A stretch of 64,000 nucleotides of DNA from Fistulifera solaris (Eukaryota), in contig AP026147.1 in assembly GCA_030295235.1 (NCBI GenBank), positions 124,001 through 188,000 on the forward strand, in the 5' to 3' direction. The notes beneath the pieces were generated by a model. That model searched no databases and was not told where the DNA came from. It saw nothing but the letters and a program-made list of their open reading frames with translations. The first letter of the stretch is position 1, and every line of letters starts with the position of its first letter. This document shows positions 34,281-36,850 of the stretch, piece by piece. Both the position numbers and the translations under genes were made by a program.

Positions 34281-35878
34281 ATGTCAGATACAGAGGACGA
34301 CAAAGTAGCGACGGAAGAAGAGAAGGAAGAAGTTACGGATCTTTCCGATAGGTACGTAAAGGCAGGTTGAGGTTCCCATTGGGGCGATGCGGCTCTCTCA
34401 CTTGTCACAACACAAACAGCGATGTCTGCACGAAATACCAAGAAGCCGCCAAGATTGTCAATCTCGCTCTGCAGGGATTGGTATCGCAATGCGTTCCCGG
34501 CGCCAGTGTTTTGGATTTGTGTGAATTCGGACACACCGTCATCCACACGCAAGCCCAAAAACTCTTTACCAAAAAAAGTCGATGGACGCAGTATCGATCG
34601 GGGTGTCGCGTTCCCGGTTTGCATATCGGTGAATGATGTGGTTTGTAACTTTAGTCCTTTGCCGACGGACGAAACGGTGAGTTCCTTGTTCGTCAACGTC
34701 ATCCTTTTTCGTCCTGTCTCGGTCACTATCAAGTGCGAAACGAATGTATGCTGTCGTTTCCTTTTATAAGGAAACCGGTATACTGTGACCCTCGTACAGA
34801 CCCTTGGCAAAACGGCAGGTATAGAAACGCACAGGTAGTTGATCTCGTTTGAGTTGACTCTTCGAAAGATTGTCCTTGAATCGACGATCCTGCTTGCATT
34901 GGAAGGGCTTTCTCATCCGATACTGGAGTGTTTTTCACTCGAGACCCTCTGTTATCATGGTTGCATGCTCTATTGGAAGGTGCCTCACCCACATTACTAA
35001 TATTACTACAGGCCCCTCTCAAAGCGGGAGATGTCGTCAAGATGGATTTGGGATGCCACATTGATGGATACATTGCGGTGGCGGCGCATACGTGTGTTGT
35101 GCCCGCAGCACCGGATGCTCCTCCCACGGTCGAAAAGGAAGATACGGGAAAGGTTGCAGTCGCGGCTTACAATGCCATGTTGGTGGCGGCGGCCGCCATT
35201 TCGGCCGGTGCGAAAAACACGGATGTCACGGCGGCCGTGGAGCGTGTCGCGAAAGCCTACGGGGTCACTCCCATTCATTCCGTGCGCATGCACCAAATGA
35301 AACGTTATGTACTCGATGGCGTCAAGGAAGTGGCCTTGAAAGCACCCAGTCCGGACGATGACATGGAAGAGAAGTTGCCGGAGTGCACATTTGAACAGTT
35401 TGAAGTGTATGCGGTGGATGTGGCGATGAGTACGGGAGATGGCAATGCTCGTCCGGGGGACTTGCGCACGACCATCTACAAGCGCAACGTGGAGCAGCAG
35501 TATTCACTCAAGGTACAAGCGAGTCGTGGTCTGCTGGCAGATGTGGACAAGAACTTCCCCACATTACCCTTTACAATGAGACATTTACAAGACTTGCGCC
35601 GGGCTCGCTTGGGATTGCCGGAATGTGTGTCACACGGTCTTCTGACACCCTATCCCGCCTTGCACGATCATTCCGGTGTCGTCGCCCACTTCAAATGCAC
35701 CGTCCTATTGCTCCCTTCCGGAAATACCCGAGTCACTGGATTAGATCTACCCGGATATTTCACAACCACTGTGGAACCAGATGCTGACACTGCCACAGTT
35801 CTCAAACAACTCGAAGAGGAAGCTGCCAAGAAGGCTGCACGAAAGGCTGCCAAGAAGAATAAGAAGTCGAAAAAATAA
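34281..35878 (+). CDS. PA2G4: PA2G4/EBP1 (M24-fold ribosome-associated protein); introns 34352-34419 and 34677-35011, frameshift in A-run near 34575
   Basis: TKYQEAAKIVN, GVAFPVCISVN, DLGCHIDGYIA, FEVYAVDVAMSTG, Lys-rich tail. Confidence 0.92.
34745..34996 (+). ncRNA. Candidate intronic box H/ACA snoRNA (5' boundary uncertain)
   Basis: Multiple hairpins; ACA at 34991-34993 before branch point; 3' hairpin pocket UUUCUCA (34909-34915) / AGGUGC (34978-34983) complementary to 18S GCACCU-UA-UGAGAAA; possible H box ATAGAA 34821-34826. Confidence 0.65.
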
Positions 35879-36073: not shown

Positions 36074-36850
36074 TCATAAATCAGTGCGACAAAAGGGGAT
36101 GATTACTATTGTGGGCTTGCGCCTAGTATGAGGCGTAAAAGTGAATCCGTGAATGATTGTTGATCGTGAATGAATCGCGACGATCCTCAAAGCTTTCGCT
36201 TTTTGTTGAGGAGTAAACGGGCCCGACAGGACACAGAAAATAGTAGGTCTTGCGATAGCAACTTCTAACGTATTCAGCGCCGCAATTGTATGACTAACAT
36301 CATTGACATACATCTTATGCCACGTCTTCATCGACTTATGAGCACCACCATAAATCGTAAAGATATGTCGTGAAACTCTTCCCATGGTGATTAAAGCAAG
36401 CTCAACATCATTTAACGAAGCTAAAATCTCGGGCTCTCTTCCGATGGGAATATTGACAATTGATTTTTGTGGCTTTACTTCTCAGGCTCTCTTCCGATGG
36501 GAATATTGACAATTGATTTTTGTGGCTTTACTTTTGACTTATGACATGAATTACATATTGATAGATTTAAAGATTGATTTTTCCTTTCAAAGCACGTTCG
36601 TGGGGATATAATAACTTTAGATAGTAACCTTCTTTCTTCCGTAGATAGTCTTGACGTAATATCTGCAGGAACCTGATACTCTCTCTTGAAAAATGGAACT
36701 GGTACATCTAACGAAGAATCAGGCGTAAACCAATTCCTTTCTGATAAGGCCTTCAAAGATATCGTAGCTGCATTTCGATGATCTAGTTGCGTGTTGCAAA
36801 TGCAGCACGCTTTCTTTTAGCAACCACAGACGCACCATCCATATCTACAA
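36074..36850 (-). mobile_element. Degenerate Helitron-associated coding fragment (CxxC...CxxC plus DUF6570-like region)
   Basis: Pieces read CCICNT...IISPR...ICNSCH...IVNIPIGREPEILASLNDVELALI...RHIFTIYGGAHKSM, resembling the region N-terminal to Helitron Rep-Hel domains; disrupted and low GC. Confidence 0.5.
36428..36533. repeat. 53-bp tandem duplication (36428-36480 / 36481-36533)
   Basis: One mismatch; non-triplet length breaks the remnant ORF. Confidence 0.93.

What the first reader, a model, noticed from the sequence alone, without database searches (positions are those of the whole stretch)
34677..35011. Long PA2G4 intron hides an H/ACA-like RNA with an 18S rRNA-matching pocket
The 335-nt intron is ~4x the local norm and highly foldable (CTGTCGTTT/AAACGGCAG, GTGCG/CGCAC, GAGTG/CACTC). 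The 3' hairpin has upper stem TCCGATA/TATTGGA, pocket strands TTTCTCA and AGGTGC, basal GGG/CCC, then ACA 13 nt after the pocket top, fitting the 14-16 nt rule. The pocket pairs 6+7 nt around UA in the 18S segment GCACCU-UA-UGAGAAA (rRNA sequence from memory), predicting a pseudouridine. The branched, three-domain structure is larger than a standard two-hairpin snoRNA. Ribosome-biogenesis genes are typical snoRNA hosts.
Basis: partly seen in the sequence, partly recalled or inferred. Interest (0 to 1): 0.75.

Follow-up and report, generated by a model that had tools for sequence, protein, structure and literature searches.

The report
Probable snoRNA inside a diatom intron
The unusually long intron of a diatom ribosome-related gene very probably carries a small guide RNA of a well-known kind (box H/ACA) aimed at one uridine of 18S ribosomal RNA, but nobody has yet shown that the RNA is made.

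Summary
The 335-base GT..AG intron (34677-35011) of a PA2G4/EBP1-type gene is real and about 4-5 times longer than neighbouring introns. These are GGG/CCC, the pocket strands UUUCUCA and AGGUGC, the 7-bp upper stem, and ACA 14 positions after that stem.

The pocket pairs 6+7 (7+7 in plant-type 18S) around U-A of a 15-base motif that I confirmed in real eukaryotic 18S rRNAs. I could not check this species' own 18S.

Chance is small for this intron: 6 of 6000 shuffles scored 13 or more. Window-wide it is not negligible, at about 0.12 expected.

The strongest new evidence is conservation. Against a second copy and a metagenome population, a block at 34709-34999 varies only at hairpin tips or by pair-preserving changes, while the flanking exons differ by 4-6.5%. 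Relatives with only 81% protein identity keep the 3' pocket strand.

Against the reading:
- folding energy is no better than shuffles;
- the lower stem is 3 bp;
- the only ANANNA box lies one hairpin upstream;
- two relatives change a guide arm;
- there is no Rfam hit and no RNA evidence.

Verdict: probably an intron-encoded H/ACA-type guide RNA (about 0.6). It is an ordinary kind, but new for diatoms.

The parts
34281..35878 (+). Host gene: PA2G4/EBP1-type ('curved DNA binding protein', Peptidase_M24 fold). Exons are 34281-34351, 34420-34676 and 35012-35878.
   Evidence: PF00557, E 2.9e-08; 978 homologues; the best are diatom sequences at 93% identity or less.
34677..35011 (+). Intron 2, 335 nt, GT..AG.
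   Evidence: The junction agrees with transcript-derived homologues.
34709..34999 (+). Conserved block, taken as the likely extent of the RNA (mature 3' end expected near 34996, which is ACA+3).
   Evidence: The second copy (X1 record 3/5) differs at 34679-34708, at 34754-34776 and at 35000/35006 only. X5 differs at 34691-34703, 34753-34776, in D2, at the D3 tip, and at 35000/35006.
34713..34819 (+). Domain D1, the candidate 5' hairpin. Its tip (34753-34776) is variable. No rRNA target was found for it.
   Evidence: helices; variation; best bipartite match 10 or less, with G-U pairs; most of the LSU rRNA was not available.
34821..34826 (+). AUAGAA, the only ANANNA (H-box consensus) lying between hairpin domains.
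   Evidence: ANANNA in the intron at 34738, 34821, 34991 and 35000 only. It is unpaired in the folds.
34832..34896 (+). Domain D2, an almost continuous hairpin without a pocket.
   Evidence: Three substitutions in X5 (34834, 34850, 34877) each turn a G-U pair into a Watson-Crick pair.
34897..34904 (+). Hinge CAUUGGAA between D2 and D3. It has no ANANNA. AUUGGA here is an alternative partner for 34916-21.
   Evidence: (direct repeat ATTGGAAGG at 34898-906 and 34972-980).
34905..34907 (+). Lower stem, 5' strand GGG.
34909..34915 (+). 5' pocket strand UUUCUCA. It pairs with UGAGAAA, 3' of the target U-A.
34916..34922 (+). Upper stem, 5' strand UCCGAUA.
34923..34970 (+). Apical part, with small hairpins GAGUG/CACUC (34926-40) and CAUG/CAUG (34956-67). 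The first tip is variable.
   Evidence: In X5 a 6-base insertion after 34930 and 34934 T>C both fall in the loop.
34971..34977 (+). Upper stem, 3' strand UAUUGGA.
   Evidence: No amino-acid-changing difference in any of the relatives read.
34978..34983 (+). 3' pocket strand AGGUGC. It pairs with GCACCU, 5' of the target U.
   Evidence: It is kept in the relatives read, except for G34979>A inferred in P0130.
34988..34990 (+). Lower stem, 3' strand CCC.
   Evidence: C34989>T inferred in P0129 would keep a G-U pair.
34991..34993 (+). ACA box, 14 positions after the last upper-stem base.
34994..35011 (+). Intron tail with a branch-site-like UACUAAU. It varies between copies (35000, 35006).
34571..34577 (+). 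A7 run that breaks the reading frame of exon 2 in the window.
   Evidence: both frames needed. In one search one A is left out in X1, X5 and X6.

Best explanation
Intron 2 of the PA2G4/EBP1-type gene encodes a box H/ACA-type guide RNA of roughly 290 nt, about 34709-34996.

Proposed mechanism (inferred, not shown):
- The intron is spliced out and debranched.
- It is trimmed back to the base of the first hairpin and to 3 nt past the ACA, because the H/ACA proteins protect the RNA.

The ACA-proximal hairpin (34905-34990) opens into a pseudouridylation pocket. Its 3' strand AGGUGC pairs with GCACCU of 18S rRNA, and its 5' strand UUUCUCA pairs with UGAGAAA. The U-A between them stays unpaired at the foot of the upper stem. 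The U sits 14 positions from ACA, where Cbf5/dyskerin would isomerise it.

That U is position 1084 of the 1808-nt plant-type stand-in. It lies in the junction just before the small GAAA-capped hairpin, upstream of the conserved run of G.

The upstream domains (D1, then AUAGAA, then D2) would supply the 5' hairpin, an H box and an extra hairpin.

Shown: the sequence geometry, the rarity by chance, and the conservation.

Inferred: expression, processing, protein binding, the target in this species, and the modification itself.
For: 1. Geometry.
- My scanner recovers the hairpin with a 7-bp upper stem, a 3-bp lower stem and the ACA.
- It finds 7+7 Watson-Crick pairs to SSU position 1084 of L073.
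- The arm orientation is the canonical one.

2. The target motif is real.
- The 15-mer is followed at the right distance by a second conserved 18S motif in at least 57 loci.
- Eight of eight of those loci tested are SSU_rRNA_eukarya, with the alignment.
- The motif is also printed in a Chlamydomonas 18S sequence (PMC6245355, passage).
- It also forms part of a Sarcocystis 18S primer (PMC5683627, passage).

3. Rarity.
- Of 2189 hairpin+ACA candidates on both strands of the window, this one scores 14 and the next best 10.
- 150 shuffled rRNA sets give a mean of 0.12 candidates at 13 or more, and 0.027 at 14 or more, per window.
- 6 of 6000 shuffled introns reach 13 or more.

4. Conservation at nucleotide level.
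- A second copy has 11 substitutions in 250 nt of exon 2 and 17 in 262 nt of exon 3.
- The same copy has none in 34709-34753 and none in 34777-34999.
- All its intron differences lie at 34679-34708, at 34754-34776 (the D1 tip) and at 35000/35006.
- In X5 the three changes in D2 stems each convert G-U to Watson-Crick, and the D3 changes lie in an apical loop.

5. Conservation in other taxa.
- Gene calls that read through the intron on relatives' contigs show matches to 34929-34995. The tblastn E-values against the intron alone are 9e-10 (P0003), 2e-10 (P0129), 4e-07 (P0130), 3e-05 (P0010, which is only 81% identical in exon 3) and 1e-04 (P0103, 74%).
- In 34971-34993 the inferred changes are 0 (P0126, P0131), 1 (P0003/P0133, in the spacer) and 2 (P0129: one in the spacer, one keeping a G-U pair).

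6. Context.
- It lies on the sense strand, in an intron 4-5 times the local length, in a ribosome-biogenesis-linked host.
- In Ostreococcus tauri 72 of 131 snoRNAs are intronic, and 33% of the hosts are ribosome-biogenesis genes (PMC7671301, passages).
Against: - No RNA evidence. The only runs holding the stretch well are contigs that run straight through the intron, with no joint.
- No Rfam match at the gathering threshold in the window, and only noise at E up to 10.
- Folding energy is not better than shuffles.
- In the whole-intron and the 288-nt MFE, UCCGAU pairs with the nearer AUUGGA copy (34898-903) instead of forming the H/ACA upper stem.
- The lower stem is only three G-C pairs.
- There is no ANANNA in the hinge next to the guide hairpin. 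The only one (34821-26) is separated from it by a whole extra hairpin.
- No rRNA target was found for D1 or D2.
- P0130 implies G34979>A, a mismatch at the second pair of the 3' arm. P0132 implies a 3-nt insertion and two substitutions in the 5' arm, and its T34900>C would strengthen the competing helix.
- 30 of 33 genomic-type N-terminal extensions showed no similarity to the intron. This is uninformative if their frames or tail lengths differ.
- The target U is not among the known or predicted Arabidopsis 18S pseudouridines.
- Window-wide the complementarity alone could be chance about once in 4-8 windows (scaled by me to a full rRNA set).
- The species' 18S was not seen.
Confidence: 0.6

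Rival explanations
1. A conserved structured intron element has another job, such as control of splicing or host-gene expression. One possible mechanism uses the two mutually exclusive helices that UCCGAU can form with the two AUUGGAAGG copies. The 18S complementarity would then be a coincidence.
For: - The direct repeat ATTGGAAGG is at 34898-906 and 34972-980, with a longer imperfect repeat around it.
- The MFE of the intron and of 34709-34996 uses the nearer copy.
- P0132's T34900>C would turn that helix into six Watson-Crick pairs, while its 5' guide arm is altered.
- The most conserved stretch (34953-34993) includes an apical mini-hairpin. An H/ACA model does not require that hairpin to be conserved.
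Against: - A 13-14-bp bipartite match with correct arm orientation, an unpaired U-N and ACA at 14 has p of about 0.001 for this intron.
- The ends of the conserved block coincide with the base of D1 and with ACA+3 to +8, as expected for a trimmed snoRNA.
- The intron's 3' tail, with its branch-site-like motif, is the least conserved part.
Confidence: 0.2
2. An ordinary long intron resembles H/ACA by chance. The apparent conservation would reflect recent common descent or gene conversion between copies.
For: - Window-wide expectation of a match of 13 or more is 0.12 for 2.65 kb of rRNA, and by my scaling about twice that for a full set.
- Fold energies are unremarkable.
- The lower stem is weak.
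- The closest relatives (P0126, P0131, X1, X5) are near enough for neutral similarity over much of the intron.
Against: - There are zero differences in 223 nt (34777-34999) beside exons at 4.4-6.5% divergence. At the flank rate about 13 would be expected (my arithmetic).
- Similarity survives in P0010 and P0103, whose exon-3 proteins are only 81% and 74% identical.
- Variation is confined to hairpin tips and pair-preserving changes.
Confidence: 0.1
3. An H/ACA-class or related RNA is present but has a different role: a scaRNA acting on snRNA, an rRNA-processing snoRNA, or a guide whose true target lies elsewhere, for example in the 25S/28S rRNA that I could not search.
For: - Only 688 nt of LSU rRNA were available as a stand-in.
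- D1 and D2 have no identified targets.
- The predicted site is unmodified in the Arabidopsis list.
Against: - The 18S match is a far outlier among 2189 candidates.
- The pocket strands are not those I recall as the conserved 18S-processing motifs of snR30/U17. This rests on recall; I read only the abstract listing of PMC7601244.
Confidence: 0.1

Closest known systems
Intron-encoded box H/ACA snoRNAs of animals, plants and green algae (for example the intronic Ot-HAsno RNAs of Ostreococcus tauri, PMC7671301)
   Same: - It lies in the sense strand of an intron of a ribosome-biogenesis-linked host.
- It has hairpins with an internal pocket and ACA near the 3' end.
- It has bipartite complementarity around an unpaired U-N of rRNA.
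- The upper stem lies 14 positions from the box.
- Conservation is highest in the guide and box.
   Different: - There is no match to any curated Rfam H/ACA family.
- It has three domains and about 290 nt, against the usual two hairpins and 120-160 nt.
- The ANANNA box is not next to the guide hairpin.
- The lower stem is 3 bp.
- Expression is unproven.
Long, irregular H/ACA snoRNAs of budding yeast with extra stem-loops, and three-hairpin archaeal H/ACA sRNAs
   Same: It has more than two hairpin domains, of which only some carry a usable pocket.
   Different: Those RNAs are experimentally defined. The archaeal ones carry a box after each hairpin, whereas D2 here is followed by AUUGGA and not by ANA or ACA.
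Human 18S pseudouridine 1136 (Taoka et al. 2018, PMC6182160: newly found, 7% modified; passages seen)
   Same: By my hand alignment from recalled sequence, it lies in the same junction of 18S, at the U immediately 5' of the U predicted here.
   Different: - It is one position off.
- The human sequence in this stretch differs.
- The equivalence is recalled, not tested.
- No guide RNA is shared.
Earlier scan findings of snoRNA-like RNAs in outsized introns (Ostreococcus MIC60 intron, Cryptosporidium SDA1 intron)
   Same: - Each is an outsized intron of a housekeeping gene holding a conserved folded RNA of H/ACA type.
- Public gene models partly translate it as protein, as P0126 does here.
   Different: They come from other organisms and other host genes. 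They are unchecked AI notes, and there is no sequence relation (one search found none).

Membership tests
Box H/ACA guide snoRNA | Hairpin-hinge-hairpin-tail secondary structure | tested here: inconclusive
   The 165-nt stretch 34832-34996 folds as two hairpins plus a tail in its MFE. The conserved block holds three domains. In longer contexts D3 refolds with the alternative AUUGGA copy. All z-scores are non-significant.
Box H/ACA guide snoRNA | H box (ANANNA) in the single-stranded hinge after the 5' hairpin | tested here: inconclusive
   AUAGAA at 34821-26 directly follows D1 and is unpaired. An extra hairpin (D2) separates it from the guide hairpin, and the D2-D3 hinge (CAUUGGAA) has no ANANNA.
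Box H/ACA guide snoRNA | ACA box 3 nt from the mature 3' end | tested here: inconclusive
   ACA is at 34991-93. The conserved block ends at 34999, which fits. The RNA's 3' end itself could not be observed.
Box H/ACA guide snoRNA | Internal pocket whose two strands pair with rRNA on both sides of an unpaired U-N | tested here: met
   There are 6+7 pairs to the 15-mer, and 7+7 to the plant-type stand-in SSU. It is an outlier against 2189 candidates and against shuffles. It was tested on stand-in 18S, not on the species' own.
Box H/ACA guide snoRNA | Target U 14-16 nt from the H or ACA box | tested here: met
   The last upper-stem base is 34977 and the first base of ACA is 34991, so the distance is 14 with 13 bases between.
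Box H/ACA guide snoRNA | Lower stem closing the pocket next to the box | tested here: inconclusive
   It has only three G-C pairs (34905-07 / 34988-90), with 4 unpaired bases between the guide and the stem. C34989>T in P0129 would keep the pairing.
Box H/ACA guide snoRNA | Accumulates as a stable RNA bound by Cbf5/Nop10/Gar1/Nhp2 | not testable with these tools
   The one read-laying run showed contigs that cover the intron without a joint. No raw RNA reads were available.
Box H/ACA guide snoRNA | Pseudouridine present at the predicted rRNA position | not testable with these tools
   No modification data exist for diatoms in what I searched. The Arabidopsis list has no pseudouridine at this site.
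Any curated Rfam snoRNA family | Covariance-model match at the gathering score | tested here: not met
   There were 0 matches in the window. At E up to 10 on 34500-35200 there were 3 unrelated minus-strand chance matches.
Box C/D snoRNA | C box RUGAUGA and D box CUGA | tested here: not met
   Neither motif occurs in the intron.

The most novel reading that the evidence does not exclude
A eukaryotic three-hairpin H/ACA RNA of about 290 nt would have several unusual features. Its guide hairpin is separated from the H box by an extra hairpin. That guide hairpin can switch between the pocket-forming fold and a competing helix built from a duplicated AUUGGAAGG element. This would tie snoRNP assembly to the splicing or expression of its ribosome-biogenesis host. 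It would install a pseudouridine in the 18S junction that is unmodified in Arabidopsis and yeast.
Probability: 0.12. Interest if true: 0.55.

Novelty: new member of a known kind. Interest (0 to 1): 0.35.

Why it matters
My searches of the held library found no catalogue of diatom snoRNAs. Rfam also finds nothing in this window. A validated example would give a first anchor for annotating H/ACA guides in diatoms, and it would predict a new 18S modification site to test.

There are two practical lessons:
- Public gene models can translate such introns as protein. The named Fistulifera solaris model in the same 90% cluster carries about 69 intron-derived residues.
- Such read-through gene calls can be mined as a proxy for orthologous intron sequence when the DNA itself cannot be fetched.

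Beyond that, this is an expected kind of gene in an expected place.

Tried and rejected
- **Orthologous introns by DNA.** The search for related loci on metagenome contigs gave only 2 loci (L001, L002), both short and cDNA-like without the intron.
- **18S from viral contigs.** There were 62 matches to the 15-mer, none in an 18S context.
- **Own genome.** Not held, so the species' 18S and 28S were never seen. The stand-ins are mostly plant-type contaminants in prokaryote assemblies. No locus could be assigned to a diatom.
- **RNA evidence.** The look-up of sequencing runs labelled X1-X4 as 'RNA?'. X1's contigs cross both intron borders with no joint, so they say nothing about splicing or a stable RNA. 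X6 covers only 9 of 30 bins and X7 only 2 of 30.
- **More read-through peptides.** A profile of three intron-derived peptides recovered only P0003 and P0010 among 52 candidates.
- **D1 as a guide.** No convincing rRNA target was found. With AUAGAA as the box, the large 7+7 internal loop of D1 lies 24 positions away, which is too far.
- **D2 as a guide.** It has no internal loop.
- **C/D boxes.** None.
- **Literature.** The O. tauri supplement that is held contains only read counts. The Chlamydomonas snoRNA paper (PMC2390600) is not held. None of the papers printing the 15-mer concerns a diatom 18S.
- **Earlier scan notes.** None for this genome or this sequence.
- **Covariation in the GAGUG/CACUC hairpin.** I considered covariation from P0003's first five residues. 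I dropped it because that part was not aligned by tblastn.
- **First protein search.** It used the wrong length class and was uninformative.
Full report
**What is there**

The + strand at 34281-35878 encodes a PA2G4/EBP1-type protein. Sources name it 'curved DNA binding protein', and Pfam gives Peptidase_M24 at E 2.9e-08. It has three exons: 34281-34351, 34420-34676 and 35012-35878.

The finding's interval is exactly intron 2, from GT at 34677 to AG at 35010-11. Splicing joins ...SPLPTDET to APLKAGDVVK.... Transcript-derived diatom homologues have no extra residues at this junction.

Intron 1 is 68 nt. A rough ORF-joining heuristic finds other likely introns of 58-80 nt in the window.

The nearest relatives are all diatoms. 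The 90% cluster of the best hit contains a protein that its source names Fistulifera solaris GAX25156.1.

All are at the stated coordinates:
- GGG 34905-07
- UUUCUCA 34909-15
- upper stem UCCGAUA 34916-22 / UAUUGGA 34971-77 (seven pairs, one of them G-U)
- AGGUGC 34978-83
- four spacer bases
- CCC 34988-90
- ACA 34991-93

The first base of ACA is 14 positions after the last upper-stem base. The arm orientation is the canonical one. The 3' pocket strand pairs with the rRNA 5' of the target, and the 5' strand pairs with the rRNA 3' of it. This leaves U-A unpaired at the foot of the upper stem.

'Highly foldable' is not borne out. MFE z-scores against dinucleotide shuffles are:

| Stretch | z-score |
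|---|---|
| intron, + strand | -1.04 |
| intron, - strand | +0.16 |
| 34709-34996 | -1.20 |
| 34832-34996 | -0.61 |
| 34897-34996 | -0.50 |

**Is the 18S target real?**

No genome is held for the window, and the window has no rRNA. I therefore looked for the 15-base motif elsewhere.

- In viral contigs it occurs 62 times, never in an rRNA context.
- In prokaryote assemblies I searched for the motif followed, at 14-22 bases, by a second conserved 18S motif that I recalled.
- All eight loci that I gave to Rfam are SSU_rRNA_eukarya, six of them full length.
- In L073 the motif is at 18S positions 1078-1092 of 1808, and the predicted target U is 1084.
- The Rfam alignment places the motif at the 3' strand of a variable helix, a short single-stranded junction and a small GAAA-capped hairpin. 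The consensus there is largely lower case, so the stretch is not universal.
- Most loci are one plant-like type, but at least six have clearly different neighbouring sequence.
- The motif is also printed in a Chlamydomonas 18S sequence (PMC6245355, passage) and forms part of a Sarcocystis 18S primer (PMC5683627, passage).

The motif therefore spans green plants and algae and alveolates. I recall it in diatom 18S too, but that is memory and not a test.

In plant-type 18S the base before GCACCU is G, which gives 7+7 pairs. In Chlamydomonas it is A, which gives 6+7.

**Chance**

I wrote a simple scanner with these rules:
- ACA;
- an upper stem of 5 or more pairs ending 12-16 bases before it;
- a lower stem of 3 or more pairs;
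- pocket strands scored for contiguous Watson-Crick pairing to both sides of a U-N.

The targets were 2652 nt of stand-in rRNA: the L073 SSU, 5.8S and the first 688 nt of LSU.

- The window holds 2189 hairpin+ACA candidates on both strands, 5 of them in this intron.
- This candidate scores 14. The next best score is 10, reached by four candidates.
- With 150 dinucleotide-shuffled rRNA sets, the mean number of candidates per window was 0.12 at 13 or more and 0.027 at 14 or more.
- The maximum reached 13 or more in 17 of 150 sets and 14 or more in 3 of 150.
- Shuffling the intron 6000 times gave 13 or more in 6 and 14 or more in 3.

So the match is rare for this intron (about 0.001). It is not negligible window-wide, and a full rRNA set about twice as long would roughly double these figures (my scaling).

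**Conservation, nucleotide level**

The single read-laying run (runs X1, X5, X6, X7; likeness 80 or more) gave no joint. X1's contigs cross both intron borders, so it gives no evidence on RNA. It did give a variation map.

X1 holds a second, divergent copy:
- Record 3 (34427-34969) has 19 substitutions and 10 gap bases. Eleven substitutions are in exon 2 (250 nt).
- Five substitutions and four indels lie in 34679-34708.
- Three substitutions and two insertions lie in 34754-34776.
- There are none in 34709-34753 and none in 34777-34969.
- Record 5 (34940-35059) adds differences at 35000 and 35006, and then in exon 3.
- Record 6 has 17 differences in 262 nt of exon 3.

X5, a metagenome, differs as follows:
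- at 34691-34703 and at 34753-34776;
- in D2 at 34834, 34850, 34866-67 and 34877, plus six bases inserted after 34857;
- in D3 only by six bases inserted after 34930 and by 34934 T>C;
- at 35000 and 35006.

One X5 contig (record 10) has seven further differences somewhere in 34783-34925 that the table did not list.

I mapped these onto the fold. The three D2 stem changes each turn a G-U pair into a Watson-Crick pair. The D2 and D3 indels fall at hairpin tips.

The result is a block at 34709-34999 whose only variation is at the tips of three hairpin domains. The intron's two ends and both exons diverge around it. At the flank rate (36 substitutions in 612 nt) about 13 differences would be expected in 34777-34999, and none is seen (my arithmetic).

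The block starts at the base of D1 and ends 3-8 bases after the ACA. That is what a trimmed intronic snoRNA would look like.

**Conservation, other taxa**

The DNA of relatives could not be fetched. However, many homologues in the protein collection are gene calls on genomic contigs that read upstream from exon 3 into the intron.

- Among the 122 homologues held, 33 had such non-cDNA extensions. Three of them matched the intron by tblastn: P0003 (19 residues, 34939-34995, E 9e-10), P0010 (11 residues, 34957-34989, E 3e-05; exon-3 protein only 81% identical) and P0103 (34929-34967, E 1e-04; 74% identical).
- Of the 12 members of P0003's cluster I fetched 8, and 7 read through parts of the intron.

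Parsimony back-translation shows only changes that alter an amino acid. For 34971-34993, which holds the upper-stem 3' strand, the 3' guide, the spacer, CCC and ACA, it gives:

| Relative | Inferred change in 34971-34993 |
|---|---|
| P0126, P0131 | none |
| P0003/P0133 | T34985>C (spacer) |
| P0129 | T34985>C and C34989>T (keeps a G-U pair) |
| P0130 | T34985>C and G34979>A (guide) |
| P0010 | one change, at 34987 or 34988 |

- P0132 also shows T34985>C, by my reading.
- C34970>G in five relatives would add a C-G pair on top of the upper stem, if C34923 is unchanged (inference).
- P0126 and P0131 may be the same sequences as X1's second copy and X5's contigs, so they should not be counted twice.
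- The other 30 extensions showed nothing. This is uninformative, because a match needs an open frame and a similar tail length.

**Architecture**

The stretch 34832-34996 folds in its MFE as hairpin, hinge, hairpin and the tail ACAUUA. Forcing the pocket open costs 5.6 kcal/mol.

The hinge next to the guide hairpin (CAUUGGAA) has no ANANNA. The only ANANNA between domains is AUAGAA at 34821-26, directly after D1.

The best-fitting picture is D1 - AUAGAA - D2 - D3 - ACA, about 290 nt.

No rRNA target was found for D1 or D2, but most of the LSU was unavailable.

**What speaks against it**

- No RNA evidence, and no Rfam match.
- Unremarkable folding energy.
- A three-pair lower stem.
- An H box that is not adjacent to the guide hairpin.
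- A competing helix. ATTGGAAGG occurs twice, at 34898-906 and 34972-980, and longer folds pair UCCGAU with the nearer copy.
- P0132 implies T34900>C, which would perfect that competing helix. It also implies a three-base insertion plus two substitutions in the 5' guide arm, and an extra base in or next to the upper-stem 3' strand.
- P0130 implies a mismatch at the second pair of the 3' arm.
- The predicted U is not among the 18S pseudouridines listed for Arabidopsis, with their human and yeast counterparts, in PMC8351944 (section 10 and Supplementary Table 3 read). The nearest entries are U1025, a predicted U1090 and U1104.
- Human 18S has a pseudouridine 1136 at 7% occupancy (PMC6182160, passages). 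By my recalled alignment it is the U just 5' of the one predicted here. That equivalence is not tested.

**Comparison and verdict**

It works like, and most probably is, an intron-encoded box H/ACA guide RNA. That arrangement is normal. In Ostreococcus tauri 72 of 131 snoRNAs are intronic, and a third of the hosts are ribosome-biogenesis genes (PMC7671301, passages).

I found no catalogue of diatom snoRNAs in three searches (listings only). Earlier notes of this scan describe similar intron-hosted H/ACA-like RNAs in Ostreococcus and Cryptosporidium (unchecked).

| Reading | Probability |
|---|---|
| H/ACA-type guide for the 18S uridine | about 0.6 |
| Conserved intron element with another role | about 0.2 |
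| H/ACA-class RNA with another target or role | about 0.1 |
| Chance | about 0.1 |

Novelty: a new member of a known kind, with a possibly unusual three-hairpin layout. Interest is modest, at 0.35.

Noticed in passing
window 34571-34577: A run of seven A breaks the reading frame of exon 2, and both halves match PA2G4 homologues in different frames. Contigs of three runs (X1, X5, X6) have one A fewer there. The window's frameshift therefore looks like a homopolymer error of the assembly and not a pseudogene.
   Followed up: yes
window 34677-35011, compared with protein P0126 (Fistulifera solaris GAX25156.1, 461 aa): The named public gene model in the same 90% cluster translates about 46 residues of the intron's 5' part and about 23 residues of its 3' part. 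It skips only about 125 nt in between. The long intron therefore seems to be mis-modelled as mostly coding.
   Followed up: partly
window 36427-36533: There is a perfect-looking tandem duplication, two copies of a 53-nt unit at 98% match, in the region downstream of the host gene. Its function is unknown.
   Followed up: partly
window 34887-34908 and 34954-34983: An internal imperfect duplication lies within the intron: ATCCTGCTTGCAT / ATCATGGTTGCAT, each followed by ATTGGAAGG. It gives UCCGAU two alternative pairing partners. This may mean D2 and D3 arose by duplication, or it may form a structural switch.
   Followed up: partly
window 34400-35300, runs X1 and X5: Two sequence versions about 6-7% apart occur side by side in one run of 'organism A' over parts of this locus. 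Only one version was laid over 34457-34939. This is consistent with two diverged gene copies, either homeologues or haplotypes.
   Followed up: no
loci L065-L121 (prokaryote genome assemblies): At least 57 bacterial and archaeal assemblies, including isolate genomes, carry short contigs of eukaryotic 18S rDNA that is mostly plant-type. This looks like contamination in the public records.
   Followed up: partly
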